Shown here one piece after another: positions 1-63,378 of a DNA stretch of 64,000 nucleotides. The stretch covers positions 103,540,001 to 103,604,000 of the forward strand of contig OZ024743.1 of the NCBI GenBank assembly GCA_964016885.1, given 5' to 3'. The notes under the pieces were generated by a model, which saw only the letters and a program-made list of their open reading frames with translations, was not told the origin of the DNA and did not search any database. The stretch's first letter is position 1, and each line of letters starts with the position of its first letter. This DNA comes from Eledone cirrhosa. Its lineage: Eukaryota. The position numbers and the translations under genes were made by a program.

Positions 1-820
1 GCATTTTAACGGCTGAGTAGCCCAATTTGCATATCGAGTGGGTTAATCGGCCGGGTGCACCGAAAACGATAAACAGAAAAAATGAAACGAAATTTCATTT
101 CCCACTCTTAGTACGGCTGTTACTTAAATATAAGTATGTACACGTACATACATATATATATACATATATGTATGTACATGTACATACATATATGAACAAA
201 CGAGCAACGATGGTTGCTAGACACTACGGCTTAATACGGGATGTTTATTTGCAAACACACCGAGCATTATAATAAATGTTTGGTGAATCCATACGTACAT
301 GTATATATGTGTGCATGTATGTATACATATATACATACTACTTTACGTCTGTATACATATATGTATGTACGTGTACATACTTATATTTAAGTAACAGCCG
401 TATTAAGAGTGGGAAATGAAATTTCGTTTCATTTTTTCCGTTTATCGTTTTCGGTGCACCCGGTCGATTAACCCACTCGATATGCAAATTGGGCTACTCA
501 GCCGTTAATATGCATAAGGAAAGTATATGCTTTCAGACGTTCAAAATCTGGCAGGAATGTATACGTTGCTGACGATAGCTAATAAGCTTGAAACTAGTAC
601 AGCGTTCCTTTGTCAGTGTTGAACAAACGAGCAACGATGGTTGCTAGACACTACGGCTTAATACGGGATGTTTGTTTACAAACACACCGATCATTATAAT
701 ACGTGTTCGGTGAATCCATACGTACATGTATATATGTGTGCATGTATGTATATATATATATACACACTACTGTACGTCTGTATACATATATGTATGTACG
801 TGTACATACTTATATATATA
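1..820 (+). mobile_element. Retrozyme-like hammerhead repeat (about 427-bp unit, about 1.5 copies) with inverted left arm running off the window
   Basis: 194-390 is repeated at 621-810 (offset 427). 1-170 is the reverse complement of about 345-513. Contains a hammerhead at 549-614 and is homologous in motif order to the 466-bp unit at 51-53 kb. Confidence 0.75.
549..614 (+). ncRNA. Type I hammerhead ribozyme (minimal, palindromic stem III)
   Basis: Stem I CGTTG(564-568)/CAGCG(600-604), extended by AGGAA/TTCCT. Core CTGACGA (569-575), stem II AGCT-AATA-AGCT, then GAAA-CTAG-TA (cleavage after GUA, 599). Confidence 0.8.
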
Positions 821-6854: not shown

Positions 6855-7240
6855 TCACATCCCATGGACCTGTGCCGTCCCCCTGACTGGCGTTCGCACC
6901 CCCAGAGGGCTCAAGTTAGATCTATCCGGGAGTTCCCATGCGGAGAGTGTGCATTTTCGTTGATGTCTGCATGCCATGATGATCTCTGATTTCAGGTTGA
7001 CTGCGTCACCCTTTAATCTCACTATCTCCATGGCCTCGGACAAGCACAGCCTGCACTTACCCTCGCCAGCCGAGTAAGCATTTGCACGTTGAACGATACA
7101 CCATATCAGGTCTGCCAGTCTAGTGGAGTGTCTCTTGCTCCGGTCCTTGAATGATTTCGCGTGATTGTATGCCCTCGATTTAAAGGCGATGTATGTGTGC
7201 CTAGCGTTGTGCGTGCTAACCACACATTTATAGATAATGT
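6855..7240 (-). pseudogene. Penelope-like GIY-YIG endonuclease fragment
   Basis: IIYKCVV...[13 protein letters not shown]...CRLCLSE...[12 protein letters not shown] motifs. Confidence 0.8.
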
Positions 7241-7263
7241 ATATATATATGGGTGCATATATG

Positions 7264-7336
<73 letters not shown>

Positions 7337-7883
7337 GTATGTGTACATGTGTGTGTGTGTATCTGTGTATACATGTACCTATGTATGAGTATGTGAATAT
7401 ATGAAGAAGCATAGAGTGCTCAACCGGCATATCGCCTATGGACGCATCTAACCAACATTACAATAAATATATATAACTTCTTGATCATATGAACATACAA
7501 CTTCTATCCAAATTGGCATCATTATTCTATTCCAGGCCTTCACCATCGCACCCTAACGCAGCCCCCCCCCCCCCCCCGCATTAGGTATACCTGTGTGCAG
7601 TGTTTAACGACATTACCAACAGTCTATCATATTCCCACCTAAACCTGCATCATTTATACTGAGTTGACCAACCCCACATAAGTTAATTCCTTGTAAATAA
7701 AATGTTTTCCCCATAGCTGGTATTGGTCAAAAATAATGCAGTAACTTTCAAAGGGCACCGGTAATTACCTCCCTTAGCGAATTATATCCCTTTCACTGGT
7801 ATCCATACCTATACAATCTAGAATCGCAATGTGATGTTATTATACCATTTCAAGGTTTTGTAATTAAGGACTTTGCCATCTGA

Positions 7884-9131: not shown

Positions 9132-10201
<1,070 letters not shown>

Positions 10202-12109: not shown

Positions 12110-13850
12110 TAGTTAGGATTGTTATCTAAGAATCTTAGAAATTCCAATATAGAGAAGAACAAAAAGCAAATTAGAAAATTCCTCAAGGACTATTACAGCC
12201 TTAACATCACTTTTGAAAACACTTCAAAAGTAGCTAATTTCCTTGATGTTACCTTAGATCTCTCTACGAATACTTATCAACCATACCACAAACCTAACCA
12301 GAATCTACATTATGTACATTCACGATCTAACCACCCAGGCTCTATACTCAAGAACTTAGTATATAACATTTCTCTTAGACTTTCTAAATTATCTAAGATA
12401 TATTTTATAATAATGCACCCTTCTACAACGAGGCCTTAACTAGAAGTGGATATAAATAAAAAATCTCATATATCCGCAACACTTCTATGGACCAAAACAT
12501 AAAACCTAGCAAAAACTACAAACACCAAAAAATACCATTGAAACAAATACCTAAAGTGGTTATTCCTATTACACCAAACAACCGAAAAACCACAACAACT
12601 ATTACTACACGATCTATGACCAATGTTATCAACCCACATATGAATACCAAGCACTCAAAATCTCATAATCTACCAAAAAATAACACCAAATACAACCACG
12701 ATGATTTATCAAATTCCACAAATAAGGACACTAACCATAGGAACTCTTCTAGAAAAACAACACAATAATATAAGAGATAATAAAAACTTAACTAAAAACC
12801 GCAAAAGAAACATAACATGGTACAACGCACCCTTCAACCTGCAAACTATTGGACAAATCCCCAAAAAATTCTTTGAAATACTACATAAACATTTTCCACC
12901 AAACCACAGATACCACCAAATATTTAACAAATATACTGTTAAATTCTCATACTCTACATCAAACAATTTCAAACAAAAAATAAGCAACTACATTTATAAA
13001 CTTTAAAATAATATGACTACACCTTTTAAAGAGACAAATAATACAATCCTTCAACCTAGAAAACGCAACCACCCAAATCACCAACACAAAAACAACAGAA
13101 CATAAAATTACAATACAACTCTAGCACCAAACCACCCACAAAGCAACCTTCATTCTCCTGCTATCATTAATTACAATAGGAATAGCTCAAGAATAAATGA
13201 GAATAGTATAGGCACCCCCCCCCAAACCATCTTACGTATGGCTGTAATTGCAGAAATAGAAGCATTTGCCCCTTAAATGGAAACTGTTTGATAAATAATG
13301 TAGTATTTAAATGCACTGTGTCTACTACAGACTCCAACAAAACATATATAGGATCTACATCAAACACATTTAAGAAAAGATTTTACGCACACTCTAGTAG
13401 TTTCAACAATACTAAACTAGCAAACACCACATCTTTAGCTGAAGTGGTAAATAATTATAAAAAGAAAAAAATAGATTTTAAGTTATCGTGGAACACCATT
13501 CTACAAAAAACTCCATACCTTAGAAACAGGAGGGAATGCGGATTATGTTCAGGAGAGATCTTGGAAATTACTAAATCTAAGGACGATTTATTAAACAAAA
13601 GACAGGAATGGCTCATAGTCTGTAATCACCGTATACGAAAAACATTTAAATACTATAAACCTAATTAAATATTCTAAATAGCAACTCACTATAATTCCGT
13701 ATAGAATAACATTTATTAGTACCTCTTTCCCCTAATTATAGGCTTTCATGCTTATTTTTTCCTATTAATGTTTTAGCTTCCTTAGATTTATGCGTTAATG
13801 ACTAAAATACACAGCCACCCGTAATTGCATGAGTGAAAATAAACATCTAT
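12110..13850 (+). mobile_element. Penelope-like element (Naiad/Neptune-type), RT C-terminus + Cys linker + GIY-YIG, frameshifted
   Basis: NFLDVTLDL..TYQPYHKPN..YVHSRSNHP; RKRNITWYNAPF; CNCRNRSICPLNGNCL; VVFKC..TYIGST.NTFKKRFYAH..CGLCSGE..LNKRQE...CNHR. Confidence 0.9.
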
Positions 13851-14087: not shown

Positions 14088-16846
<2,759 letters not shown>

Positions 16847-18583: not shown

Positions 18584-18655
18584 TGACGTACATGGGAGTC
18601 GAACCCACATCTTTGGTTATCCGGACCACTGAGCTACCATTTACACCAACACATC
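18584..18655 (-). pseudogene. tRNA-like sequence (tRNA pseudogene / Pol III head)
   Basis: Acceptor GATGTGT/GTACGTC, A-box TGGTGTAAATGG, T-arm GTGGG-TTCGACT-CCCAT; anticodon loop atypical (CCGGATA). Confidence 0.55.
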
Positions 18656-20200: not shown

Positions 20201-22448
20201 ATATAAATGAAAGTTGACGCATCGGTTACTCATGTCCTACAAATGGAGTAGTGAATTTTTAAATCCCACTGGCTTACCTTTAGTTTGTTTCGTTAACTTT
20301 AGGATGATTGCATTTAATTTTTCACTCAGTTGTGTCCCCCGTGTAATTGCACCACAATTAAGTGTGGAATGGGGAGTTAATTTTTTTTTCCTTGAACTTT
20401 AGCGTCATTTCACATTCCTAACCAAGAAAGCGCGATTTAACCCAGGTGTAAATTTTAACGCCTACTGTTGTGCTATTTCACACTCATACCTAAACTGTGC
20501 GAATGATTGATTAGTTTTTGCACCCGGTTGTCTCCCCTGTTTAATTGCACCTCAATTAAGTGCGAAATGGTGACCTCTGGCCAACCACACATCAGTGAGT
20601 TGTGTTCAGTAGATTTCATCACACTTATTTGTATTATCTAACCAATCAGACAACTCGAGTGTTGTTCATTGGGCGAAATCATTCCTATTTATATCGGTCA
20701 AGTCCGACCTAGGATCACATTTCTTTTTTGGCTTTTGACAATAGGTAGGTTTTTTTACATGCATACTCTCATAAACCACCCCATGTTTCTGAAACGCATG
20801 CTTCTTCAACATTTGTCACCGTAATGGAGGTTTAGTTAATGTGTTTATGATCATAAGGTTCCAGTTTATCATGCTGTGATTTTTCGGCCATTTTTGTCTG
20901 TATCCTTTCAATGGTTAGTACTTAATTATTGCTATGTTCGAACTGAACAAACATACTGACACTTATGTACCTACCACTGTAGCCACACTATTTAATTTCC
21001 TTTATCACAGGTAGTCCGTACGTTGTGTTACCCCTAACTAAAAACCTGAAATTTGATTGGTACACAAAATCTTGCAAAACATACCCACTTTCTCAGACCA
21101 CATAGATTTATCACATTTTTTCACAACTTATATCCGTGTTTAGATTTGCTTACTTAAACGTTATTTGTCCATTATTTATCGTTCTCCCTGGTTAATTTTC
21201 TAAAAACAATGCCCTCAAGAAAAGAACATTCATTGGTCAATTATCTAATGATGCAAGTAGGTCTAAGCGAAGGCGTCTCACCAAAGATGTAAATGCGACT
21301 GCGATTAGGCTCTCACAGAATGCTGTGCAGACGGCAGCTGCAAGAGCGGAGGAGGATGACAGTCGGCGTGAACTTCGACGGAACAAAGATGCTGCCGCGA
21401 CTGCTGCTGCTCGCGCTCGAGAGGATGAAAGACGACGTGCCGTTCGACGAAGCAGGGACGCTGCTGCAACAGCCGCTGCTCGGACTCGAGAGGATGAAGG
21501 ACGACGCGCAGTTCGATGAAGCAGGGACGCCGCTGCCATTGCTGCTGCAGGAAATACTGAAACCATAGAGCAACGACGTGGCCGACTTCTGCAAAGTGAA
21601 CAGCGGCGATCATCGTTACGTGGCATTTCTAGGACTTGCAATTCACGATGGTTGTTGAAGGCCTTTAACTACGATCCCTCCTCAGACTACGCTGTGCTTG
21701 CCTGGAAATCTTGGCTATGGCTGATCCGGACGAAGTTGTTAATTACCCCCACAGAATTTCTTAACTCCCTAGACCCTACCGGATTGCCACCACACTTATT
21801 GCGACTTAAGAAAGGTGCCCTGTCATGATACTTCTCAGGAATTTGGAACCTCGAAAGCTTTCCAACAGCACGCGTCTGATCGTCCAAAAAGCGATGCCTC
21901 ATGTTATTGAGGCAACAATACTTACAGGATGTGATAAGGCGGGATACTGTCTTCATACCAAGGATACCTCTCATTCCATCCGGTAAAGACATTCCTTTAG
22001 CAGTATTAGTTGTAGATGTTATCGAGATGCAAGTGACATAATAACAGCAGAAATTAGAGATGAAATAGACGTTTATTTTTTGTTGTAGCACAAACAATGG
22101 TGTTGTACAGAGGCTGGTATCTGGCGTGTGATCCGTCGGCTTTCCAGTGGCTGTCTGTCTTTTCTTTCTGGCGTTCTCAACCGGCGTTGTTCTATCAAGG
22201 AGCGTGAGGCGTCTTACTACAGTACCTCGAGCCAGATTTTCAAACTATTGAAAATCGATGTCATTACTCACATGTGGAGTAAGATGGCGAACAATGCAAC
22301 AAGGGGGAGCTATCCGCTCTAGCAAAAATTGAATCCAGAATAAGGATTTGAAAAATGTTAAAAAAAAAACGACATGCATGCATAAAAAAAAACAAGGCAA
22401 AGGAAAAGCAGAAACACAGAGGCAAAGAAAAGGTGCAGCTAACATAGT

Positions 22449-25400
22449 CTAAATATAGACGGTGCTGCACAGTTTTTTGGGCCAGTGGACCCTACGACCT
22501 GAACGGGTCGTGGTCTTGTAACGTGGCGATGGTGGTGGTGTAGGGACAGGTGATGATGGTGGATCAGGAACAGTCGTTCGCTCAACAGGCAAATACGAAG
22601 GGGTTCGTGGATCAGGAACCACAGCGTCCGTATCAAGGTGCGCCTGCTTAAGCCTGTCTAATGTAACTGTCACCCTGGACCCCTTAATATCTAACGTGAA
22701 ATGCTTAGCCGAGCGCGCTAAGACACGGTAAGGTCCAGTGTAAGGCTGTGTGTGAGCGGGGGCTTCACCGTATCATTCCTTACAAAGACATGCGTCCACG
22801 AGGCAATATCCCTCGGGACAGCAGTCTTGACAGTTTGTTTCCTAGTGTCCATTGGCGGTAAATCCTGGAAATAGGAGCGCAAACGGGACACGTAGGAAGC
22901 GTGATCTTGGGCATCAAGATCGATAGGGGCAAGCATTTGCCCGGGCAACGTCAGAGGGGCACCGTACAGTACTTCGGCCGGTGAAAATCCAAAGTCGACC
23001 TTCACCGTTGACCGAATCCCTAGTAGCACAATAGGGAGGTACTCGCTCCAATGCGCCGAGTCCATTAAGGAGGCCTTCAGTTGGCGGTGAAAACGCTCCA
23101 CCATACCATTCGAAGCGGGATGGTATGCCGTAGTTCGAATGCGTTTAGCACCAATTATTTTTGACAGCTCGAGGAAAAGGCTCGACTCGAACTGTCGTCC
23201 ACGGTCGGTAGTTATTGTGGATGGAACTCCATAACGAGAGATCCATCCAGACACAAGAGCACGTGCTGTTGTCTCCGCGGTGATGTTTTTCAAGGGGATG
23301 ACCTCAGGCCATCTCGAAAAACGGTCAATGACGGTAAGCAGATAAGAAAAACCATCGCTGACAGGCCAAGGTCCCACTATGTCAATATCAATATGCGAAA
23401 AACGCGCATCTGGGTTAGCAAAGGTACCCAGGGGAGTTTTGACGTGTCGATGGACCTTTGATTTCTGGCAAGCGACGCAGGAACGGCACCAAGCAGCAAT
23501 TTCACGCCTCATATTTGGCCAGAAAAATCTAGCTGATATGAGCTTTGCTGTGGCAGAAGATCCTGGATGCGAGATACAATGTAATCCCAGAAACACAGTC
23601 CGAAAATGATTCTCTGGAACGAAGGGCCTAGGCACGTCCAAAGAGACGTCGCAGAGAATTTGGCCAACTGCAGTCGACAGAGGCAAGTATTTCATCTCGC
23701 AATTCGCAAACTCGGGCGATGTGACATCCATTGACTCAAGGGGAGGCTGATCCGCAGCCAAACGAGTCAGATCTATGTCAGAGGGTGACGAGATCGCTGT
23801 CACGGGTAAGCATCGGCCGCTGTATTTAGTGAACCCGGAATGTGCTGGATATCACTCGTATATTGCGAGATGAAATCAAGGTGTCTCGTCTCTCTGGGCG
23901 AGTATTTATCAGCCTTCGCTCTCAAAGCAAAAGTCAATGGTTTATGGTCAGTGAGGATAGTAAACTGTCTACCCTCTAGCACATGTGAAAAATGTTTCAC
24001 GGCCAAAAAGATGGCTAAAAGCTCTCTTCCAAAGGTGCTGTAGCGCGTCTCAGCAGGATTTAGCTTTTTGGAAAAAAAACTCCAGCGGTTGCTGGTAACC
24101 ATTGATGTTTTGCTGTAGTACTGCGCCCACAGCGATATCCGATGCATCAACACAAAGCGTTAGCCTTGCACCGGGTACCGGGTGAGTCAGTAACGAAGCA
24201 TTAGCCAAAGCAGTTTTGGCGTGCTGAAAATCAGCAAGTTGAGTGTCTGTCAAAGAAATATCTTTGTTCTTCCTCCGACAATTTTTCAAAATTTCTGTCA
24301 GGGAGAAAAGCAACTTGGCACAATTTGGCACGAAACGCCTATAAAAGTTAACCAGACCTAAGAACTGGCGTAACTGACGTAGTGAGGTCGGTGGAGGCAA
24401 ATCCTCTATGACCTTAACTCGCTCAGGCCGGGGTCGAATTCCGTCAGCATCGATGACGTGACCCAAGAAAGTCAGTGACTCAGCGCCAAAAACACATTTG
24501 GGTGCATTAAGCTGCACGTTATACGCCTTCAATCGGCGGAAAAGAAGATTCAAATGGTGCGTATGCTGCTCTGGAGAAGAACTAGCAATGAGCAGATCGT
24601 CAATATAGGTATAGACGAAATCGAGGCCGCGAGTAACCTCATCCATAAACCGCTGAAAAGTACTAGCGGCATTCCTTAATCCGAACGGCATAGTCAAAAA
24701 CTCGAAAGACCCAAATGGCGTAACTATAGCCGTTTTTGGAATGTCACTTTTATGGACAGGAATTTGATGGTACGCACGAATTAAATCCAGTTTGGAGAAT
24801 ATCTTGCATCCCTGCAACGAAGACGCAAAGTCTTGCAGATGAGGGATAGGATAACGGTCCGGTACCGTTATCGAATTCAGGCGTCGATAATCTCCAGTAG
24901 GTCTCCAATCGCCATTCGCTTTCGGTACCATGTGCAATGGGGACGCCCACGGGCTCGTGGACGGACGAATAATCCCCATTTGCAGCATAGGATCAAACTC
25001 TGATCGTGCTGCTTTGAGTTTGTCCGGAGGCAAGCGACGAGGGCGAGAGAAAACGGGAGCACCAGTTGTAGATATGAAGTGCTCCGTGGTATGAGTAGGT
25101 TCATCAAATCGAAAATTCCCCTGTGTCAGTTGCGGGAACGAGTTCAACAACGCATGGAAAGGATCACCGGTGTTAGCAAGAAAAAATATCGGGCTAACCG
25201 TTGGAACTCCTGCTGCCTTGCCAACAACAGCTAATCCCGTGATGCCATCAATTAGGCGTTTACCACGAAGGTCCACCGTCAATGAAAAATGGTGGAGAAA
25301 ATCCGCGCCTAGAATCGGATACGGCAAGGCAGCGACAGTAAATATCCATTTAAACTCGCGCCGCAGATTACGAAACTGCAAAGGTAACGAGATTTGTCCG

Positions 25401-25627
25401 AAAGTTCGAATCGGCGAACAATTTACTGCCTGCAACTCAATAGGCGTCTCAGGGGGAGTCTCCTTCATACAACACACAGGCCATACGGAACAAGCTGCAC
25501 CTGTGTCAACCAGAAAAGCTCTACCTGACAGCAGGTCCTCAATGAAAAAGTGGCGGTTAGATGTTGTTTCGCAGAGCGCACTATCCGCCGTTAGTGACTC
25601 TGGTCGTCTTTTCCCTCGTAAGCACAA
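22449..25627 (-). CDS. pol: Gypsy pol (protease, RT, RNase H, integrase), broken by frameshifts
   Basis: LVDTGA; [10 protein letters not shown]; DYRRLN; YIDDLL; DAS..VGA; RELLA; TDHKPL; HPG..C..CQ; IDRFSRW; TDRGRQFES; [11 protein letters not shown]. Confidence 0.93.
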
Positions 25628-26371
25628 GGAGGCCTACAACGGGCGGCTTTTTTACCATATCTTTCACGGTAATAACAATATGTTGTTCCTGGTGTGTTGG
25701 AAGGGCTACGGTGGCGAGAAGTTGAATAACGTCGTGAGCGGCTCCCCTGCCGTCCAAAGGACCTGAATTCCGTGCACAACTCCGCCACTTGACGAGTCAT
25801 GGCTTCCATAGTGGTGATTAATTTGTCATTAGACGCTGACGAGCGTGATTGAGGAAGAGAAGAGGAAGCAACGTACTTTGGCTTCGAAGTGTCTCTCTTC
25901 GTCACCTCTACAATTTTGTCAGCAGAGACAGCAATGTGATCCAGGGTATTCACCTCTAGCATATGGGCTAGGATCGCCTGTACCTCTTGAGGTAGGCGAG
26001 AGAAGAACAATTGCTTCAGGAAAGGGCTATCCTGATCTTGGGAATCGCTCAAATCCCGCAAATGCCGGAGAAAAGCGGTAGGGGTCCTGTCACCTAATCG
26101 TTCGTCCTCGATCAGTGACCGAAAACGACTCTCTACCGACTTACAATTCCTCCTCAAAATCTCGCCCTTCAAAAACTCATACGTCAAGTCAGAGGGGGGG
26201 GGGGTCTGTAATTAGGTCTTGGACCGAATCTGCTAGATTAGGGGGAAGGCCGCTAATCAGTACAGCGAGGCGCTGGTCAGATTCGGTCTTACAGACCGTA
26301 AAATACGCCTGTAACTGGGCAAACCACATCTTAGGTTTTCCAGTAAAGGCGGGCAAATGTGGTACATTCAT
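25591..26371 (-). CDS. gag: Gypsy gag (frameshift at a G homopolymer near 26190)
   Basis: P.F...PKMWFAQ; LGDRTPT.FLR.LR; LF..RLP..VQ.IL; CYYR.RYG.KA.RC.PPC knuckle. Confidence 0.85.
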
Positions 26372-28094
26372 GTCAACTTTTAAAATTAAAACAAATATAT
26401 ATACCTATATATCGAAAGAGCAATTAATGCACCCTTGTACAGTGAAAAGAGAACAGCCAATATTGAGAAAAAGTTAAAGGGCAAAAAGAAACAGACATTC
26501 AAAACATAAGGAAATATGCAAAATACATAAAATACAGATATATATCTTTAAAAAAAAATTTTTCCTTCAACGTCTGTCCCCTCGCGTTGCCTCAACGAAC
26601 CAGCCAAATCAAATAAGGTAAAAAAAAAAAGGAAGAAAAAAAATGTTTTTTTTTTTAAAAATATATCCGCGTTGGATATCAACAAAGGTAGCCAGTGGCT
26701 AAAAATCCCTTAGAAAAATGTAAGGCATGCATATCCCCATGCGGGGCAGTTATGTTCACAAAAAAAAGTTTAGTCTCTTCTCTCTTGATCAGTCATGGAA
26801 CACACACGCAATTCAAAATATGTGTCCGTTACAAAACTGGGAAGGAACGCAACGCCACCTTGGAAAAATACACTTTTTTTTTTTTTCTTCTGTAAGTTGC
26901 GAAAAAGTTGGCAACGGAAATGGAATATGCAAGTGAATAAAAAAAAAGTCGCTCTAAATTATCGACACGAATGAATCGTTTTGATATTTCCGATGTGTGG
27001 TGGTTTGCGTCGGTAAGGCTATGAAGCTGCCACTCACTATTCCCTGTTTTGGTCAGTGGTTAAACAATGTTGTCGCTGATGCTGCTGTCGTTGTTGTTCT
27101 CGAGTGTAGCAAAAAGTTTATGAAATACTACTAATTTTTCGATAATTTTAAAAGGATTATTTTTTATTTTCGCAAGATGCGAAAAAAAGGGCCGACAATG
27201 TGGCAATAAAAGGACAATTGATGAAAAAGAAGGGCTGCGTTAAATTCTTACGTCGGTCACCACTTTAGCAGTATTAGTTGTAGATGTTATCGAGATGCAA
27301 GTGACATAATAACAGCAGAAATTGGAGGTGAAATAGACGTTTATTTTTTGTTGTAGCACAAACAATGGTGTTGTACAGAGGCTGGTATCTGGCGTGTGAT
27401 CCGTCGGCTTTCCAGTGGCTGTCTGTCTTTTCTTTCTGGCGTTCTCAACCGGCGTTGTTCTATCAAGGAGCGTGAGGCGTCTTACTACATTCCTTTCACA
27501 TTCAGAAGGCTGAAATTCCCTCTCCGGCTCAGTTTCGCCATGTCGATTAACAAATCACAGGGTCAGACGCTGACGGTCGTAGGGCTTAATTTAGAATAAC
27601 CGTGCTTCTCCCATGGTCAACTATATGTTGGCTGCTCTCGAGTGGGGAGCCGACATAACCTATTTGCTTTTGCAACTCGCGAGAAAACCCAAAATATAGT
27701 CTATAAGGAAGTTTTGTAGGCACCCCATCCGCCAACAAGTAATCGCTGTTCTTTTCTTGTATAAGTGCTTACATTTGCTGTATCCGTGTGCTATTTTTGT
27801 CCTTTTGACAATACCACGTACGCCTCTGAGGTTGCTTTTGCTATACGTTATAAATGTTCAATCTCTCCATTTTCCGCATTTATATGTTGCTATTACGCTT
27901 TGCTATCGATGTTCCGTAGTTTTACCCTAATTAATCTACTTTTCCCTACATCTTATTTACACATTTTTTTTACATTCTAGCGTAATCTTTCCAAGGCCGT
28001 TTTTGTGGCCCCCGACTGTTACATGTTTTTCTAGATTACAATCTCAAATAACAAGCAAAGCAAATACGACACACCAAAGTGGTGTGAAGGACTT

Positions 28095-28492
28095 TTTAAG
28101 GGCCACCACCTCTAATCGGAGTCCTCTTTGCTGACAGCTCTGCCGCTGGGACTTTTAAGATTGAAGGATCCAAGGCCTTCTTCGGGGCTACCAAGTTTAA
28201 ATTGTTACCATCGGATTCATCTTTGCTGGCAGCACCGCCGCTGAGATATTTCAAAGTGAACGTTCAAAGGTCCTCTTCAGGGCCACCAACCATAAATTGT
28301 TATCGCTGGATTCGTCTTTGCTGGCAGCACCGCCGCTGAGACTTTTAAAAGTGAACGATCCAAGGCTCTCTTTAAGGCCACCAACTTTAAATTGTTACCA
28401 TCGGATTCGTCTTTGCTGGCAGCACCGCCGCAGAGATATGTCAAAGTGAACGTTCAAAGGCCCTCTTTAGGGCAAACCCCTATAAATTGTTA
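28095..28492. repeat. Tandem repeat of about 95 bp (4+ units, alternating) in the Helitron 3' region
   Basis: TCTTTGCTG at about 28125, 28221, 28315 and 28410. Confidence 0.8.
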
Positions 28493-28916
28493 CTTCTATA
28501 GTCGTGTTTAACGTAAGTCTTTCGGTTCATTTGAACGACTACTCCATTGAGAGTTATACCGGGCAACGCCGGGTACCTCTGCTAGTTTACTGATAATAGA
28601 TTCTACCGGATATATATATCCACTAGACATACTGTGGCCTTTCATTGATAATTGTTATTGTTGCGATGAAGTTTCCCACTTCACCAGTTAATTCCACTTA
28701 TCATTCAATTGCTTTTTGTTGTTGTTTTAACGTATTTTTTGTGTTAACTATGTGAAGAGGCAACTAAAGAGATAGAGGAGTTGTATGGGCACTGAGGTAA
28801 CATACAATGGTAGGTTGAAAGATTCGGAGGCTGGCTGATTATGAAGGAGTGGCGCAAGCGTTGTGAATTAATTAATTTCAAGTCTTCTTATTAATAACTA
28901 CATTGTTTCTTTCCAG

Positions 28917-41781: not shown

Positions 41782-44700
41782 TTTTCTCTTTCTCTTAATT
41801 TTGAGTATATTTTTTGACCGGCCACCTTCCTGGTGGCAAGGTTGTAAAAGAAAAGAAATTGTCATCCCTTGAATCGCAAGAATGTTTTGCAAATTTTGAA
41901 GGTGCCAGCTATCGCAGCCATTTGTAGACTATGAATTAGGGAGCTGCGCTTTTTGTCCGCAAATCCAAGTTCAGTCATACTTTGGTCCAAGCGGGTTGGT
42001 ATATAACCCGTAGCACCAATAATGATGGGTATGAAGCTAAAGGTGTATCTTGGATACTGGATTTGTAAACTCCTCATCAATGGTCCGTAGATGTCCTCCT
42101 TCTCCTGTATTTTTCTGACAACGTTTACATCAAGTGGGCAGCTGATCTCCACAACAGAACACGTTTTCAATGTGTGGTCCCAAACTACAATATCAGGCCG
42201 GTTGTGCTTTAATTTGGTGGCAGTTTTTATTTTCAGGTTCCACCAGTATTCCTTAGTGCCATCTGTCTCAATATATTCTTCCTCGTTTGTTGTTGATTTT
42301 GTTTTCCGAAGTGCGTTCCAGATGGTTCTAGCTATCCCATCGTGTCTCATGGGGAGGTAGTAGCGAGATGACATTCTTTCGCAGCTGGCAACATTGTGGC
42401 TTACATCCTCGATCTTTGTTTTACATAGCCTACATTTATTGTCAGCTGCTGGCCCTCCTCTTTTGTGCAGCAGATATTTGGTAGGGAGTTCTTGTTCCTG
42501 TATTGCATAGAGATATCCCTCAAGGTGTGATGTCATAAACTTGTCGGAACTCCATGCCAGGCTTTTTGAGTGGTTTATCCCCTCTATGGTCTGTGTTTTA
42601 CGCCTCAAGTATCCATGCACAACTTTTTCTGTAAATTGGTCAATTTTTTTTTCTTGTTTGAACATTGAATAGGATCTTCCGATTTCTCTGGGTGAGAGAT
42701 TTATATCGGGCTTTATTCCATATCTCTCCTCCAGATCAGTCGCTATTCTAATGATATTTCTTTTTTCATGGTCATAAACCTGGGCAAGATGGTTGCCAAC
42801 CTTTTTTCCTCTGTTGAAGGTGTTGCTTCAGTGTCACTATCCGGGTCTCATATGTTGTTAATATTGATTTTAGACCCCGGCCACCTTCCTTGCGTGAGAA
42901 GTATAGCCTATCCACATCACCATTGATGTTAAAGTTCCCAGTAACACTGAGAAGTTTTCGAGTTCTAACATCCATCTCACTTAGTTCTTGCAATGACCAG
43001 TTCAGTAGGCCAAATGTTGGCGTTAGAATTGGCACAGCATAAGTATTGTGGGCAATGTATTTGTTGTATGCTGACAGTTCTGATGACCATATTTTCTTTA
43101 CTCTTCTGAGGTATTCAGTTCTGGTTCTCTCCTTATTTATGGGTCCATCATATCTGACATTCTCATCCTGTCCAAGATATCTGTAGTTGTCACCTGACTG
43201 CAGAGGTTGTATTGTCAGGCCGTTCATCTCTAGATTTCTAGAGGAGGGCACAGCTCTTCCACGTTTTACTGCCAAATATGCACACTTGGACTCACCAAAT
43301 TTCATTTTGATGTCGGTTGAAAATTGTGTAATGAGGTCCAATTGTTTCTTGATGTCATTGATATTTGGCCCATACAACTTCAGGTCATCAACAAAGAAAA
43401 GATGGGAGATACTTCTGGTCCCACTTCTTTGTCGACCTTGTTTCCTGAGTAGGTAAGATAGTGGATTCAGTGAGAGAACGAAGAGTAGCACTGACAAGCT
43501 ATCACCCTGAAAGATGCCCTTCTGGTAATGTATCTTATCAGTCTTAACCTGCTCCTTCTCACCTCTAAGGATCAAACTGGTGTACCAGTTCTTGGTCAGG
43601 CGTTCAACAGCAGCTACCAATGGTTGTGGGACTTTAGCTAACTGTAAAGCCTTAACAATCCACCCATGAGGTACACTATCAAATGCTTTTTGATAGTCCA
43701 GCCACACGACAGTCATGTTTCTGCGATTCTTTGTTGTTTTTTCCTGAATCATTTTGTTAGTTAGTAGGTGATCTATGCAACCCCACACCTCCCTCTTTCC
43801 ACCAGCTTGCTCAGGTGTTATGATGTTGTTGGTAGCACAGTGATCCTGTAAGAACAGGTTAAGGCACCCAGTATATAATTTATACATGATGTTTTGGCAG
43901 GCAATTGGGCGGTAATTTTTAGCAAGGGTGGTTTGGCTATTTTTGGGAATGAGGAGAGTAGAGGCAGTTGATAACCATCTGGGCAGTTCTTGTGTGCCCT
44001 TAATGGTTTCTGTAAACAGCCGTATGAGATCTTGCCGATAGAAAGTGAAATTCTTCAACCAGTATCCTGTAATGAGGTCTGGGCCTGGCGATTTCCTATT
44101 CGACATTTTCTGTAGAGCTGTTTCCAGTATTGACCCATCTATGTCATATTGTTTTGTCTGGACATGTTGGCAGTAGTCCTGTTCCAGTTCTTTTAGCCAA
44201 TTAGCTTGTCTGTTGAATCCGTCATCCGTTTCCCATACAGATCTCCAGTAGCTCTCAACCTGTTCTTTTGAAGGGGTGTCATTTACAGGGATTGAGCTTT
44301 TGCCACCGAAGCTGCGATAAACTGATTTAGGATCTCTGGCAAACAATCTATTTAGCACTTGTCGTTTATGTGCTGTTGACTTATATTTTAGTCTTTCTGT
44401 TGTAGCTGTGAGTTGTTGTTTCAACTGGTGTAATTTGGAGTTCAAAGTTTTAAATTTTGTATCTCCAAATCTTCTCTCTAACTTTTTCTTTAGGTCTTCC
44501 TGGTGTTGTGTGAAGTTGCTCTCTATGTTGCATTTCATAACGACTGCGATGTGTGAGATACTTCGTCTCAGGGACAAAATTTTGGTTTTTAAATTTCGCA
44601 TCCACGCTGGTTCAGGCTTTCTGTTTGTATCTTGATTGCGTGGTTTTAGATGTGTGTTATATGCTAGCAATGTGACAGCTGAAACATATAACAAAACATT

Positions 44701-45810
44701 AAGCGTTTCAAATGTCGTTTCTACACCTTTAGATCGTATAGCCTTCAGATAATTGCCAGCTATTTCGTTCACCGCTTCCAATTCCAATTTAGTGGGTTCT
44801 TTACTGACTCTAGTGTTGTATGGTCTGTCACTCACATTAAGGCTGTGTATCTCTTGAAACATATCATTCCATATCACTTGTAGGGAGCCCACAAGTTTTT
44901 GGTGCTCTGTTTGTTCAGTAGAGTCATGAATTTCAGCCTCGTTGTTGATGTGGTGACAATTACTACTAGAGTCAGCTGACCTTTCTCGCTGTTCTTCAGT
45001 GGAAGTGGGATGAATTTCAGCAAAATTGTTGGTGAGCTGTTCACTGTTAGATTTAGCTGGCCATTCCCTTTGTCTGTCAGTGGAGGTGGGGTGGTTGTCT
45101 ACAAGGGCTGTATTTGTAGTATCACTCGATTCCGTTAGATGTATCAATTTACATCTAATGATACGTTTTGCCTGTTCATTTAAATGCTTTGGAGAAAAGT
45201 CTAATTCTGGGTGTTTGGAGTTCCATAAAGTTTTTAGCCTTTGCATAAAACCGAACTTTTGGGGTTCAGATTGTTTGTATGCTTCATATAATACTTTGTT
45301 AAGCTCGTAGGTCCACTGTATACAACGGTTGTAATTGCGATTTGGTCGAAGGAGACTTGTACTTTTTGCCATGATGAGTTCGTCTATTCACTAATATTTC
45401 GTATTTATTTTTCAAAATAGTCGATGATCTTCTTTAAAAGTTACGACAAAGTTCTGTCAGAATCAAATTTAAAGTTATTCACAGCTTGAGTAATATTTCT
45501 TTTCAGTTAGTTTTTAATTCTACAGCTGTGTTTTATATAAATGTAATATTTCTTTATAAAGGTAATATAACAACGTTGCATTTATATGTTAAAGTGTATG
45601 TATCGTTCATATATCATAAGTGTATGTATCGTTCATATAAATAGGTGTTTTACAACACACTTACAGTTCAAACACTTATGTAGAATTATTGTATGTAATC
45701 TTACCGCGTAATGTAGCTCAACTTTTTCCAATATATGGTATGTTGCCTTCATGTAAGCCGTAATTACACACGTCCGATTATCGGACACTGACCACAACGG
45801 TCGCCATTTT
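41782..45810 (-). mobile_element. Near full-length R4/Dong-like non-LTR retrotransposon in (TATG)n
   Basis: Single RT-RLE ORF region with 5' and 3' UTRs; both ends abut (TATG)n; 3' UTR hairpin at 41820-41838. Confidence 0.9.
41862..45372 (-). CDS. RT + CCHC zinc knuckle + restriction-like endonuclease (one frameshift near 42800)
   Basis: N-terminal WT.ELN..LY..Y..W domain; NYRPIAC; LDYQKAFDSVPH; GIFQGDSLS; HLFFVDD; CRLC..EDVSH.VASC; RHD; RPDIVV; EISCP; KEDIY. Confidence 0.92.
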
Positions 45811-50610: not shown

Positions 50611-50652
<42 letters not shown>

Positions 50653-50683
50653 TTAATGGAAACTATCTTTATAAAACCATATT

Positions 50684-50744
50684 TATTTTATTATATATAC
50701 TTCAAGGGTACCAACATTTTGGTACGCTCTCATCAGATAAAATA
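50684..50744 (-). ncRNA. PLE hammerhead-like motif (GAAG core variant); mirror copy at 56276-56336 (+)
   Basis: TATTTTAT-CTGATGA-GAGCGTACCA..TGGTACCCTT-GAAG-TATATA-TA-ATAAAATA. Confidence 0.6.
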
Positions 50745-51552
50745 CAAAAGTTGTTTTATAGATAGTGACATATCCAAAAACAAGAACTTGTCGTTTTAAG
50801 TTCTGTTTCAATAGTGAAAGAAATTCAAATCTTAGGATGAATATGTTAATGGGGATAACGTGAAGTTGAAAAAGATCGTTATATTTAGACGCTAGGTAAA
50901 TTTACATAATTATTAAGATTATTTGTTAAGGGAAGAAGAGAGAGAGGTTAATATTAATATTAGGGTGTAAGAAAATGTAAGGAATTAATATAAGAAAAAA
51001 GTATATTATAATTAGGAATAGACTATTATTAATATATAATTGTATGGATCGTATTAGTGATGGTGTAAAGAGAGTGAAATAATTATATTTATTTATTTAA
51101 TTATATAACTATATAATTTTGATAGTATCTTTAATATAACATGAGAATTATAAATGTGTTGAAGTGGTAGAATATCAATTTTAAAAAGTGAGAGATACTA
51201 ATTATTGGGTCTATTCTAATCGTGAGTTTTAATATTATATAGATAATTTTTATAAGTATAAAAACAAATAACGAAACGAAATTAAATTTCGTTTCGTTTG
51301 TAACTCACTTTTGTATGACTGACGCTTAAACAATTAAGTTAAAAATGTACATCCACATATGTATACTGAAATACTAGTATGCATATGAATACACACACGT
51401 ATACATATGTAGATGTACCAAGTCTTTCACTGGTCACTTTACTGTGAGTGGCCAGCTATTCTGTATGTAAACATACAGACAAACCGGTTTTTAGAGTCAT
51501 ACTGGTTTTTGAGGAAACACCTTTCCTCTATTCTCCAGAAAGCCAGACAAGG

Positions 51553-51597
51553 AATATTGAACTAGTTTCGTTGTTGTTACAACTCATCAGCAATATT
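51553..51597 (-). ncRNA. Type I hammerhead ribozyme, copy 1
   Basis: Reverse complement reads AATATTG-CTGATGA-GTTGT-AACA-ACAAC-GAAA-CTAG-TT-CAATATT. Confidence 0.92.
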
Positions 51598-52018
51598 TAC
51601 CTATCTACCGGCCTTTCTGGAGAATCGTAAAAGCACATATCGTTATATGCTTTTTCTATGAAAATTAGTAGTGGGCAGACTAATTTGCATAGAGTGTGAG
51701 TACGTACCGGTTCAACGGAGACGATAAAAACAAATAACGAAACGAAATTAAATTTCGTTTCGTTTGTAACTCACTTTTGTATGACTGACGCTTAAACAAT
51801 TAAGTTAAAAATGTACATCCACATATGTATACTGAAATACTAGTATGCATATGAATACACACACGTATACATATGTAGATGTACCAAGTCTTTCACTGGT
51901 CACTTTACTGTGAGTGGCCAGCTATTCTGTATGTAAACACACAGACAAACCGGTTTTTAGAGTCATACTGGTTTTTGAGGAAACACCTTTCCTCTATTCT
52001 CCAGAAAGCCAGACAAGG

Positions 52019-52063
52019 AATATTGAACTAGTTTCGTTGTTGTTACAACTCATCAGCAATATT
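52019..52063 (-). ncRNA. Type I hammerhead ribozyme, copy 2
   Basis: Identical to 51553-51597. Confidence 0.92.
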
Positions 52064-52484
52064 TACCTATCTACCGGCCTTTCTGGAGAATCGTAAAAGC
52101 ACATATCGTTATATGCTTTTTCTATGAAAATTAGTAGTGGGCAGACTAATTTGCATAGAGTGTGAGTACGTACCGGTTCAACGGAGACGATAAAAACAAA
52201 TAACGAAACGAAATTAAATTTCGTTTCGTTTGTAACTCACTTTTGTATGACTGACGCTTAAACAATTAAGTTAAAAATGTACATCCACATATGTATACTG
52301 GAATACTAGTATGCATATGAATACACACACGTATACATATGTAGATGTACCAAGTCTTTCACTGGTCACTTTACTGTGAGTGGCCAGCTATTCTGTATGT
52401 AAACACACAGACAAACCGGATTTTAGAGTCATACTGGTTTTTGAGGAAACACCTTTCCTCTATTCTCCAGAAAGCCAGACAAGG

Positions 52485-52529
52485 AATATTGAACTAGTTT
52501 CGTTGTTGTTACAACTCATCAGCAATATT
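52485..52529 (-). ncRNA. Type I hammerhead ribozyme, copy 3
   Basis: Identical to 51553-51597. Confidence 0.92.
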
Positions 52530-53271
52530 TACCTATCTACCGGCCTTTCTGGAGAATCGTAAAAGCACATATCGTTATATGCTTTTTCTATGAAAATTAG
52601 TAGTGGGCAGACTAATTTGCATAGAGTGTGAGTACGTACCGGTTCAACGGAGACGATAAAAACAAATAACGAAACGAAATTAAATTTCGTTTCGTTTGTA
52701 ACTCACTTTTGTATGACTTGACGCTTAAACAATTAAGTTAAAAATGTACATCCACATATGGTATACTGAAAGTACTAGTATGCATATGAGAGTACACACA
52801 CGTATACATATGTAGATGTACCAAGTCTTTCACTGGTCAGCTTTACTGGTGAGTGGCCAGCTATTCTGTATGTAAACACACAGACAAACCGGTTTTTAGA
52901 GTCATACTCTAAAAACCGGTTTGTCTGTGTGTTTACATACAGAATAGCTGGCCACTCACAGTAAAGTGACCAGTGAAAGACTTGGTACATCTACATATGT
53001 ATACGTGTGTGTATTCATATGCATACTAGTATTTCAGTATACATATGTGGATGTACATTTTTAACTTAATTGTTTAAGCGTCAGTCATACAAAAGTGAGT
53101 TACAAACGAAACGAAATTTAATTTCGTTTCGTTATTTGTTTTTATCGTCTCCGTTGAACCGGTACGTACTCACACTCTATGCAAATTAGTCTGCCCACTA
53201 CTAATTTTCATAGAAAAAGCATATAACGATATGTGCTTTTACGATTCTCCAGAAAGGCCGGTAGATAGGTA

Positions 53272-53316
53272 AATATTGCTGATGAGTTGTAACAACAACG
53301 AAACTAGTTCAATATT
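53272..53316 (+). ncRNA. Type I hammerhead ribozyme, copy 4 (inverted block)
   Basis: AATATTG CTGATGA GTTGT AACA ACAAC GAAA CTAG TT CAATATT; predicted cleavage after 53309 (GUU). Confidence 0.92.
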
Positions 53317-56300
53317 CCTTGTCTGGCTTTCTGGAGAATAGAGGAAAGGTGTTTCCTCAAAAACCAGTATGACTCTAAAAACCGGTTTGTCTGTGTGTTT
53401 ACATACAGAATAGCTGGCCACTCACAGTAAAGTGACCAGTGAAAGACTTGGTACATCTACATATGTATACGTGTGTGTATTCATATGCATACTAGTATTT
53501 CAGTATACATATGTGGATGTACATTTTTAACTTAATTGTTTTATAAGTATATTTATGAAGAATTAGGGTTGTAAGTATATATTATTTTATTATATTACAA
53601 CAGTTTATTTATATAAATAATTTTGGTGAGTATATATGTTGTTTTTATTAATAGATAGATAATTTAAATATTTTTTATATATGTTAAGGGTTTCGATGAA
53701 TTTCTTGTTTACATTTTCAAGTTCTAATTTTATTATAGAAGATTATTTTGTATATTCAATAGTTGTATCAAGATAGGAATACATTTACAAACTTTACGAA
53801 GTTAACGAAATTATACAAAAAAAATTAATATTTATCTAAAGTTTAGTTGTTACTTAGAAGAAATGTTTAAGCGCGTTACATTATAAAGGAGAAGATAACT
53901 CCAATATTTCTTAGTTAAAATAGTTAAGTTATATTTATTCTAGAATTTACTTTAAAAAAGAAAATATTCAATTAAGATATATGTAAAATATATGTCGAAA
54001 AATGTTATATATTATTTTATATAAGATTTTATAGTATCATATATTACATATTTTCTAAGATAAAAACGCTTTTATATGTGTATTTAGATAGGATTCATTA
54101 TATCTATGCATATGTTAATGTCTATATAGTCTATTAGGAATAAATATTAGACATCAAAATTATATTCAGAGACATCATTAAAACCATCACAAAAAAGATA
54201 TATTTCAAAATATCATTTAAAAAGAATATCATTTTTTAAAAATATCATTTAAAAAGAAAAATATCATTTTTTTTTAAATCACAAAACATCAACAAAACAT
54301 AGTGAAGACATATAAAATGTAAACAAGTGAGATATAGATAATATTTTCTATAGATTGTAGATACTTCTGAACGTCTTAGTTTCGCAATGTTTGCAAGAGT
54401 TGAATAATTCTTTCTTTTTATTAATAGAGTTTTGATTGGTAAGTATATGAAATATCTCCTCAATACATAAATGACAAATTCTTGAGAGAGCCATATTTCG
54501 GTATGCGGGCGCTTTCGAAATCGTTCCCCAAGAGATTGAATAGTCAATGTTATTGTCTTTTAAGTACCAAATTAGATGTGAAAGTGATGTTGAAAATATA
54601 TAACTATATAGGATAATATATATAAGATAAAATATATAACTATATAGGAGCCACTTTTACAAAATTTAAGGAACGCTGGTATAATCACAAATATACATTT
54701 GATAGATCAGACATCACTTTCACATCTAATTTGGTACTTAAAAAACAATAATATTAACTATTCAATCTCTTGGGGAATGATTTCAGAAGCACCAGCATAC
54801 CGAAATATGGCTCTCTCAAGGATTTGTCATTTATGTATTGAGGAAATATTTCATATACTTACCAATCAAAACTCTATTAATAAAAAGAAATAATTATTCA
54901 ACCCTTGCAAACATCGCCAAACTAAGGCGTTCAGAAGTATCTACAATCTATAAAAAATATTATCTATATCTCACTTGTTTACATTTTATATGTCCTCACT
55001 ATGTTTTGATGATGTTTTGTGAGGGGTTTTTTAAATGATATTTTTTTTAAATGATATTCTTTTAAAATGATATTTTGAAATATATCTCTTTTGTGATTGT
55101 TTTAATGATGTTTCTGAATATACTTTTGATATCTGTAATATTTATTCCTAATACACTATATAGACATTAACATATGCATAGATATAAGGAATTCTATCTA
55201 AATACACATATAAAAGCGTTTTTATCTTAGAAAATATGTAATATATGATACTATAAAATCTTATATAAAATAATATATAAAGTTTTTCGACATATATTTT
55301 ACATATATCTTAATTGAATATTTTTTTTTTAAAGTAAATTCTAGAATAAGTATAACTTAACTATTTTAACTAAAAAATATTGGAGTTATCTTCTCCTTTA
55401 TAATGTAACGTGCTTAAACATTTCTTCTAAGTAACAACTAAACTTTAGATAAATATTAATTTTTTTTGTATAATTTCGTTAACTTCGTAAATTTTGTAAA
55501 TGTATTACTATCTTGATGCAACTATTGAATATACAAAACAATCTTCTATAATAAAATTAGAACTACTTCCTTTTTCTTAAATATATATTGAAAATGTAAA
55601 CAAGAAATTCATCGAAACCCTTAACATATATAAAAAATATTTAAATTATCTATCTATTAATAAAAACAACATATATACTCACCAAAATTATTTATATAAA
55701 TAACCTGTTGTAATATAATAAAATAAAATATACGTACAACCCTAATTCTTCATAAATATACTTATAAAAATTATCTATATAATACTAAAACTCACGATTA
55801 GAATAGACCCAATAATTAGTATCTCTCACCTTTTAAAATTGATATTCTACCACTTCAACACATTTATAATTCTCATATTATATTAAAGATACTACCAAAT
55901 TATATAATTATATAATTAAATAAATAAATATAATTATTTCACTCTCTTTACTAATCTCATTACTAATACGATCCATACAATTATATATTAATAATAGTCT
56001 ATTGCTAACTATAATATACTTTTTTCTTATATTCATTCCTTAAATTTTCTAACACCCTAATATTAATATTAACCTCTCTCTCTTCTCCCCTTAAAAAATA
56101 ATCTTAATAATTATTTAAATTTACCTAGCATCTAAATATAACGATCTTTTTCAACTTCACGTTATCCTCATTAACATATTCATCCTAAGATTTGAATTTC
56201 TTTCACTATTTAAACAGAACTTAAAACGACAAGTTCTTGTTTTTGGATATGTCACTATCTATAAAACAACTTTTGTATTTTATCTGATGAGAGCGTACCA

Positions 56301-56467
56301 AAATGTTGGTACCCTTGAAGTATATATAATAAAATAAATATGGTTTTATAAAGATAGTTTCCATTTATCAATATTATTGATATTATACTCCAGAAGAATC
56401 CTGTAGAGTGCTTCGAATCTGTTATAAATAAATTTGTTGAATAAACAACAAATTAAATAACTCTTTG

Positions 56468-56522
<55 letters not shown>

Positions 56523-62149: not shown

Positions 62150-62976
<827 letters not shown>

Positions 62977-63378
62977 AGTATAGACTAAAATAAAACTAAT
63001 ACACCATAAATGTGGTGTATTATGACGAAAATCAGTGGGTCTGTTGATGTGCAGATCTGACTGATCAGCCAGTCTGCTAATATGCAAATCAGGCCAATCA
63101 GTCACTGTATATTCCAGAAAATATCATATATTTTCACTAGCCCTGACAGTTGGCAAGTAGGCAGTATACGGCACTGATGAAGGGCAATCACCAAGAAACA
63201 TTAGTATCTTCCGTTCTGTTTATATGCCAACACAAGAGCAAGAATGACGGGCCATTCTACTCAAATAGTTTAAAGAGGCTGCTTTCATAATTGCAAACGA
63301 ATTTAATATTATTATTAATATTAAAAAAACTCCGATTTACACACACACACACACACACATGTGTGTGTGTGTGTGTGT

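What the first reader, a model, noticed from the sequence alone, without database searches (positions are those of the whole stretch)
51261..53538. Candidate new retrozyme: 466-nt tandem hammerhead repeat predicted to yield viroid-like circular RNAs
Seen: near-identical 466-bp monomers, each with a perfect type-I hammerhead (7-bp stem I, CUGAUGA, 5-bp stem II, GAAA, palindromic ACUAGU stem III, GUU site) and no credible ORF. Established: tandem hammerhead repeats in animals (non-LTR retrozymes, newt satellite 2, schistosome Sm-alpha) are transcribed as multimers, self-cleave and accumulate as circRNAs, typically up to about 400 nt. Inference: a young, larger-than-usual family that may be undescribed in this lineage; I cannot verify novelty without a database search.
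Basis: partly seen in the sequence, partly recalled or inferred. Interest (0 to 1): 0.9.

Follow-up and report, generated by a model that had tools for sequence, protein, structure and literature searches.

The report
Hammerhead retrozyme with Penelope-type twin insertion
A 466-base non-coding repeat with a hammerhead self-cutting RNA motif lies at over 2,000 places in this animal genome, mostly as back-to-back arms in TA microsatellites that end at two fixed points; it is a new member of a known kind of genomic parasite, likely copied by a Penelope-type retrotransposon enzyme, and its cutting and circular RNA are predicted, not tested.

Summary
The 466-bp unit and its type I hammerhead are real. 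The array is not purely tandem: 3.54 units (51258-52908) sit back-to-back with an inverted 1.36-unit arm (52906-53541), between 13-bp duplications, inside an older Penelope-like element (PLE). It is one insertion of a young dispersed family: 6,083 exact hammerhead cores genome-wide. Arms end at two fixed sites about 70 nt apart, next to (TA)n (2,269 and about 1,500 junctions), and at the ribozyme cut at only one locus. In 42 of 45 back-to-back pairs the arms use different sites. That is the PLE footprint (tail, inverted arm, AT-rich target). Hammerhead stems covary across three families. A circular template is likely but unproven: one insertion has 20 near-identical units over both arms, others are mixed. 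No RNA data were available and no partner PLE was identified. 466 nt is within the published 51-972 bp range. The scan has reported this pattern before (21 notes, at least 3 genomes). Verdict: new member of a known kind.

The parts
51258..52908 (-). Long arm: 3.54 head-to-tail 466-bp units, hammerhead-sense on the minus strand; its RNA 3' end is site A (unit position 466) at 51258
52906..53541 (+). Inverted short arm: 1.36 units, hammerhead-sense on the plus strand; its RNA 3' end is site B (unit position 392-397) at about 53537-53541
51553..51597 (-). Type I hammerhead 1; predicted cut between 51560 and 51559
52019..52063 (-). Type I hammerhead 2
52485..52529 (-). Type I hammerhead 3
53272..53316 (+). 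Type I hammerhead 4, in the inverted arm; predicted cut after 53309
51258..51331 (-). [quoted passage not shown]
52900..52908 (.). Arm junction AGT-CAT-ACT: 3-nt microhomology, centre of the fold-back
   Evidence: sequence
51248..51260 (+). Left copy of the 13-bp target-site duplication (overlaps the element end by microhomology)
53539..53551 (+). Right copy of the target-site duplication
55757..55769 (-). Empty site: the same 13 bases occur once in the twin arm of the host element
50632..56470 (.). Host: older fold-back PLE copy (arms 89-95% alike) with endonuclease C-terminal remnants at 54348-54656 (-) and 54648-54893 (+) and its own hammerheads near 50744 (-) and 56276 (+)

Best explanation
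This is one insertion of a young, protein-free repeat family (an animal non-LTR retrozyme) whose arms end at two fixed sites next to TA-rich DNA, and which is likely pasted in by the reverse transcriptase/GIY-YIG enzyme of a Penelope-like retrotransposon acting in trans. Steps: (1, inferred) tandem copies are transcribed on the hammerhead strand. (2, predicted) the hammerheads cut, probably as dimers given the 2-bp palindromic helix III, and a host ligase closes 466-nt monomers. (3, inferred from the footprint) the PLE enzyme nicks both strands of AT-rich DNA 7-13 nt apart and primes cDNA on both: one strand at U-rich site A, the other at U-rich site B, each just 3' of a strong hairpin. (4, shown as anatomy, inferred as process) each cDNA runs on through hammerheads for 0.1 to about 30 units, stops at scattered positions, and the two cDNAs join by microhomology, giving back-to-back arms with a tail at one end. 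The read-through and the sameness of units within an insertion favour a circular monomer as template (about 60%) over an uncut multimer (about 40%).
For: 6,083 exact hammerhead cores, control 0. Site A + (TA)4: 2,269; site B + (TA)4: 774 on the forward strand, the reverse count of 1,513 being inflated by overlapping matches; cut site + (TA)4: one locus. In 53 insertions picked by similarity, 86 of 94 closed 3' ends fall at 464-466 or 387-399 and 80 of 94 have a TA tract within 20 nt. In the first hammerhead-bearing loci along C1, 38 of 40 ends fall at A or B and 13 of 15 two-armed insertions pair A with B. On C1 0-117.5 Mb, 42 of 45 back-to-back pairs are A+B (p 4e-10 against 0.5). 3 of 13 two-armed insertions cannot be made by copying one arm from the other, so two primings are needed. 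These match PLE hallmarks: inverted 5'-truncated copy, tail at one end, (TA)n target (PMC8557442); both strands cut and extended, two internal RT start sites bounding the tail, AT-rich target (PMC11167929). Autonomous-type PLEs here also end at two sites in (TA)n, and intact PLE frames exist: 796 aa with Pfam RVT_1 and GIY-YIG, and 813 aa with Hydra-clade motifs. Ribozyme conserved: core nearly invariant in about 138 units, U-A to A-U swap in stem II in 14 units; 10 of 16 pairs change on both sides across 7 sequences of 3 families, 0-1 in slid controls. Units differ 0.7-0.9% within insertions against 1.4-2.4% between; 13 locus-private variants are in every covering unit; 20 units over both arms at C1:30.83 Mb show 1 singleton and 12 fixed differences from the window unit.
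Against: No RNA evidence and no cleavage test. No partner PLE shares sequence with the unit, so PLE dependence rests on the footprint. Fixed ends do not by themselves show a circle: in PMC11167929 the uncut RNA was the main template and ribozyme mutants inserted normally. Some arrays are mixed: 13 shared variable sites among 32 units at C1:5.74 Mb, a 3-4-unit higher-order repeat in L099, and the two arms carry different haplotypes in L021, L027, L105 and L113, so not every insertion comes from one RNA; 160 locus-private variants are in only some units. Assembly polishing could inflate sameness within arrays. 54 A ends and 23 B ends had no partner (exact patterns miss diverged ends; some insertions are one-armed). 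The tail (70-74 nt) is longer than the 30-40 nt in print. One search is a 7-sequence alignment with a structure taken from one member.
Confidence: 0.85

Rival explanations
1. Same PLE-driven insertion, but the template is an uncut linear multimer transcript; the hammerhead cuts rarely or late and circles, if any, are by-products.
For: [quoted passage not shown] Only 1 of 9 Xenopus dimers cleaved. Helix III has probability 0.0 in the monomer fold. Mixed arrays and higher-order repeats exist. Only one locus ends at the cut.
Against: Arrays of 7+13 units with one singleton and their own haplotype and unit length need a monomer bottleneck somewhere. The ribozyme is conserved with compensatory changes. 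Coral, mussel and axolotl retrozymes give abundant circles (PMC7229834).
Confidence: 0.35
2. The unit is the solo pseudo-LTR of an autonomous PLE, and these loci are 5'-truncated copies of that element.
For: bioRxiv 10.64898/2026.07.22.740005 found 24 of 57 Xenopus retrozyme families homologous to annotated TEs, nearly all PLE termini. PLEs here leave the same two-end footprint. Fewer than 80 of over 2,000 loci were read.
Against: None of 53 + 25 insertions read runs into a PLE ORF at its 5' side; arms continue into further units. No similarity to 21 loci fetched around long PLE frames other than separate insertions and microsatellite-like matches. A colinear 430-nt sister family shares the whole unit plan, also as tandem units.
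Confidence: 0.08
3. A satellite amplified at DNA level (unequal exchange, fold-back) that happens to carry a hammerhead; or a fold-back assembly artefact.
For: Long arrays with shared variants suggest some local amplification. The window's junction is a near-perfect fold-back, with indels in the unit beside it.
Against: Dispersed copies on many contigs, two fixed ends, A+B pairing, target duplication with an empty twin site. The unit also lies in four other sequencing runs of four studies. Most junctions join unrelated positions.
Confidence: 0.04

Closest known systems
Animal non-LTR retrozymes (Cervera and de la Pena 2020, PMC7229834; Li, Clavereau and Pollet 2026, bioRxiv 10.64898/2026.07.22.740005)
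   Same: Short non-coding tandem units, one type I hammerhead each, GC under 50%, highly self-paired, duplication larger than 4 bp, thousands of copies, coexisting with PLEs; size within 51-972 bp.
   Different: New sequence family. In the parts I read, these papers propose PLE mobilisation from co-occurrence and terminal-repeat homology and do not describe fixed ends, an inverted arm or A+B pairing. Their RNAs were shown; this one was not.
Penelope-like elements: Poseidon PAc (Frangieh et al. 2024, PMC11167929); Hydra, Neptune and Naiad clades (Craig et al. 2021, PMC8557442)
   Same: Two internal start sites bounding a tail, tail at one end, inverted 5'-truncated copy, partial tandems, AT-rich or (TA)n target, type I hammerhead.
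   Different: No ORF; tail 70-74 nt rather than 30-40; canonical hammerhead with short loop II and a stem I bulge; arms are pure repeats of one unit; the two strands almost always use different start sites (PAc showed no strand difference in vitro).
Non-autonomous Chlamys PLEs such as MRC1 (PMC8557442, passage)
   Same: Protein-free, multicopy head-to-tail insertions attributed to PLEs.
   Different: Those generally share 3' ends with autonomous families and Chlamys mostly lack a canonical hammerhead; here a hammerhead is present and no shared end was found.
Axolotl/newt satellite 2 repeats (PMC7229834)
   Same: Weak palindromic helix III, expected to cleave better as a dimer.
   Different: Unrelated sequence, 330-350 bp; insertion anatomy not described in the parts read.

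Membership tests
Animal non-LTR retrozyme | [quoted passage not shown] | tested here: met
Animal non-LTR retrozyme | No protein-coding ORF | tested here: met
   longest frame 60 aa
Animal non-LTR retrozyme | Dispersed multicopy family, duplication longer than 4 bp where visible | tested here: met
Animal non-LTR retrozyme | Highly self-paired monomer with the hammerhead free to fold | tested here: met
   z about -11; stems I and II formed, helix III not
Animal non-LTR retrozyme | Self-cleavage of the transcript | not testable with these tools
   indirect only: covariation; one locus ends 1 nt short of the cut
Animal non-LTR retrozyme | Linear and circular monomer RNA in cells | not testable with these tools
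   no run on record as RNA was listed
Non-autonomous Penelope-like element | Inverted 5'-truncated copy next to the main copy | tested here: met
   36 of 53 purely back-to-back, 4 more with small extra pieces; 15 of 25
Non-autonomous Penelope-like element | Two fixed 3' ends with a tail at one end only | tested here: met
   tail longer than published
Non-autonomous Penelope-like element | AT-rich or (TA)n target | tested here: met
   80 of 94 ends
Non-autonomous Penelope-like element | Sequence shared with an autonomous partner's terminal repeat or 3' end | tested here: inconclusive
   none in the PLE families sampled; the genome has 40,000-62,000 candidate PLE fragments per query, few were read
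Autonomous Penelope-like element | RT plus GIY-YIG ORF | tested here: not met
Viroid-like replicating RNA | RNA-to-RNA replication, often ribozymes on both strands | tested here: inconclusive
   the motif scan found a hammerhead on one polarity of the unit only; replication not testable

The most novel reading that the evidence does not exclude
A Penelope-type enzyme, perhaps as a dimer, binds one 466-nt ribozyme-made RNA circle and starts two rolling-circle cDNAs at once, one from each nicked DNA strand and always from different sites 70 nt apart, so that the whole two-armed array (up to 20 identical units) is written in a single event. The family would then be a minimal natural substrate that explains the PLE tail and inverted arm and links retrozyme circles directly to their transposition.
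Probability: 0.35. Interest if true: 0.65.

Novelty: new member of a known kind. Interest (0 to 1): 0.33.

Why it matters
The class is known, and that PLEs move it has been proposed twice in print. What this family adds is insertion anatomy in large numbers: two fixed start sites, near-obligate A+B pairing between the strands, and arrays that read through many hammerheads. Young intact PLE frames lie in the same genome, so two open questions become testable in a tube: whether retrozyme circles are the templates, and how PLEs make their tail and inverted arm. The scan has already noted the same footprint for other families, so this locus is a further example rather than the discovery.

Tried and rejected
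No RNA holder listed: no evidence either way. Contigs of runs X1, X4, X5, X6 cover the unit and show the head-to-tail joint, but run kind is unknown and tandem DNA gives the same joint; summed depth (2-6 x 10^5 in X1) was not used as copy number. A read-laying on the sister family gave no result. Partner searches that led nowhere: the flank of L015 is a local inverted piece of an older, different repeat; L115 joins an arm to a diverged PLE terminal piece, one case, not taken as a partner; Neptune-like family with 796-aa frames, 1.5-kb terminal repeat and about 37-nt tail, no shared sequence; Hydra-like family with 813-aa frames, no shared sequence; hammerheads with the same helix III and a longer stem II, 89 matches, by eye nearly all insertion variants of this family or its sister. 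Pile-up of 5' ends at the cut site: 12 of 96 starts fall at 166-198 against about 7 expected, none exactly at 165, and the sample is biased; not claimed. miRNA-family Rfam hits at the junction are the fold-back hairpin, all below gathering score. No look-alike of this unit in earlier scan notes by sequence. Host lineage was not determined; 'octopus' and 'cephalopod' were a recalled guess from composition. Literature searches listed no paper on this family or on paired fixed ends in retrozymes; subscription journals, Dfam and Repbase were not searchable, and no supplements were read, where retrozyme family lists could hold it.
Full report
Observation. The window lies at G000:C4:103540001-103604000 of a 3.0-Gb, microsatellite-rich animal genome. 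Tandem Repeats Finder gives period 466, 3.5 copies, at 51258-52908. BLAST of one unit shows three full units and a 253-bp part in one orientation, then 240 + 396 bp in the other, ending at 53541. No frame exceeds 60 aa. The cut-to-cut monomer folds at -163.6 kcal/mol (z -10.8) as a line and -159.3 (z -11.3) as a circle; stems I and II form, the 2-bp helix III does not. I number the unit 1-466 on the hammerhead strand (1 = window 51723); the cut falls at 164/165.

The locus is a single insertion. TTTTATAAGTATA flanks it on both sides (51248-51260, 53539-53551). The host is an older fold-back element whose twin arm carries the same 13 bases once. The host has PLE endonuclease remnants, 36% identical over 77 aa to an intact PLE protein from this genome, and its own hammerheads. 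The left arm ends at position 466 (site A), the right at 396 (site B), and they meet at a 3-nt microhomology.

The family. An exact 33-nt hammerhead pattern matches 6,083 times, control 0; the unit search returned 144 matches from 40 of 781 candidates, full-length ones 97-100% identical. I read 53 distinct insertions chosen by similarity (12 overlapping duplicate loci dropped). Of 94 closed 3' ends, 49 lie at 464-466 and 37 at 387-399; the other 8 include four short spurious or sister-family pieces. 80 of 94 have a TA tract within 20 nt; 36 of 53 are purely back-to-back and 4 more have small extra pieces; 5' starts are scattered. To remove the similarity bias I read the first hammerhead-bearing loci along C1 (26 stretches, 25 insertions, 2 loci already read left out): 38 of 40 ends at A or B, 13 of 15 two-armed insertions A+B. 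Genome-wide, A + (TA)4 occurs 2,269 times and B + (TA)4 774 times on the forward strand (reverse count inflated by overlaps), but cut site + (TA)4 at one locus only. From the listed places on C1 0-117.5 Mb (98 A, 69 B), 45 back-to-back pairs form within 20 kb: 42 A+B, 1 A+A, 2 B+B (p 4e-10), median span 1,035 bp; 77 ends stay unpaired. In 3 of 13 two-armed insertions neither arm is contained in the other, so simple fold-back copying cannot make them all, although it could make the window's copy.

What leaves such a footprint. Craig et al. 2021 (PMC8557442; passages and the Hydra section read) describe PLE insertions as partial tandems with an inverted 5'-truncated copy, a 30-40-bp tail often at one end only, and (TA)n targeting in Hydra, Naiad and Neptune. 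Frangieh et al. 2024 (PMC11167929; parts 1-2 of 4 read) showed that a purified PLE protein cuts and extends both strands at AT-rich DNA and starts cDNA at two internal RNA sites that bound the tail. Every feature is met here, with a longer tail (70-74 nt). PLE terminal repeats in the fetched loci also end at two sites, about 43-55 and 132-150 nt after their own cut, in (TA)n. Both sites in the unit are U-rich stretches 3' of strong hairpins; site A is mostly unpaired, site B partly. Intact frames exist: 796 aa with Pfam RVT_1 and GIY-YIG ('Neptune-like' is my recalled label), and 813 aa, best copies 97-98.6% alike, with RWR, DKT, CxCX5C, CxxC and CxH motifs as listed for Hydra (no Pfam hit). 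Neither shares sequence with the unit, so the partner is not identified.

Is the ribozyme kept for function? In about 138 units the core is nearly invariant and 14 units swap U142-A153 for A-U. A colinear 430-nt sister family (window 1-820, L010, L142) and a 310-nt family keep the core while changing the stems: 92% of cells paired, 10 of 16 pairs changed on both sides, 0-1 in slid controls, 7 sequences. This argues for selection on the fold; it does not show cutting.

Circle or multimer? Many arms exceed one unit and pass hammerheads, so a cut linear monomer (at most 302 nt from site A) is not their template. For a circle: units within insertions differ by 0.7-0.9% against 1.4-2.4% between; 13 locus-private variants are in all covering units, 8 of them in both arms; one insertion has 7 + 13 units with a single singleton and 12 fixed differences from the window unit. 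Against: 160 private variants are in only some units, a 32-unit array has 13 shared variable sites, L099 has a higher-order repeat, four loci have arms of different haplotype, and PAc prefers uncut RNA. I put the circle at about 60%. No RNA data were available.

Comparison. Cervera and de la Pena 2020 (PMC7229834; parts 2-4 of 6 read) defined animal non-LTR retrozymes, showed 170-400-nt circles in coral, mussel and axolotl, and named PLEs as strong candidates for mobilising them. Li et al. 2026 (bioRxiv 10.64898/2026.07.22.740005; parts 1-3 of 5 read) report units of 51-972 bp, homology to PLE terminal repeats, and cleavage in 1 of 9 dimers. This family meets the sequence-level definition; cleavage and circles are untested. 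Six searches listed no paper on this family or on paired fixed ends in retrozymes, within an open-access library and without supplements. Earlier scan notes, read after my analysis, report the same footprint for other units in this and other genomes (21 notes, at least 3 genomes); they are unchecked and not independent evidence, but they show the pattern is not unique to this locus.

Verdict. Real, young, abundant; a new member of the non-LTR retrozyme kind that works like a non-autonomous PLE (0.85). Interest 0.33. The boldest reading left open, coordinated twin rolling-circle priming on one RNA circle, has probability 0.35 and interest 0.65.

Noticed in passing
window 1-820; L010:1-1120; L142:700-1225: Sister retrozyme-like family, about 430-nt unit, colinear with the 466-bp unit (same helix III, covarying stems), also back-to-back and ending at two sites in (TA)n with a tail of about 55 nt.
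   Followed up: partly
L089:670-1300 (- strand); L135:2632: Third hammerhead repeat, about 310-nt spacing, loop II AACA, helix III ACGCGU; L135 holds a further related hammerhead.
   Followed up: partly
window 9181-10178, 50632-56470, 13207-13668, 15032-15493, 6855-7457, 62479-63123: Many PLE fragments with endonuclease C-termini and type I hammerheads, several as fold-backs; Hydra-like terminal repeats have tails of about 90 nt, longer than the 30-40 nt in print.
   Followed up: partly
L177:2267-4705 and L176, L178-L183, L185, L186: Young Hydra-like PLE family with intact 813-aa frames and long microsatellite-rich untranslated ends; my hammerhead scan found no canonical motif belonging to it.
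   Followed up: partly
L124, L157-L161: Young Neptune-like PLE with recurrent 796-aa stop-to-stop frames, an upstream ATG in another frame (possible frameshift), a 1.5-kb terminal repeat and an atypical hammerhead-like stretch near L157:1320-1355.
   Followed up: partly
L107:1211-1300 (G000:C4:325768719-325768796): The only insertion found whose arm ends at the ribozyme cut (1 nt short) and runs into (TA)n; could record a self-cleaved RNA used as template, or be chance.
   Followed up: yes
L115:1305-2095: An arm of this family sits back-to-back with a hammerhead-bearing terminal piece of a different PLE family; a possible two-family insertion.
   Followed up: partly
window 21995-27489: Gypsy-like LTR retrotransposon (gag-like, protease, RT, integrase frames on the minus strand) with 227-bp direct repeats 99% identical; family label recalled, not tested.
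   Followed up: no
window 28115-28493: 95-bp tandem repeat of 4 copies with a CTGAAGA...GAAA hammerhead-like core on the minus strand near 28288.
   Followed up: no
window 41862-45387; 18584-18655: A long non-LTR retrotransposon RT frame (871 aa) with a second 321-aa frame; a tRNA-like Rfam match (35.6 bits), probably a SINE head.
   Followed up: no
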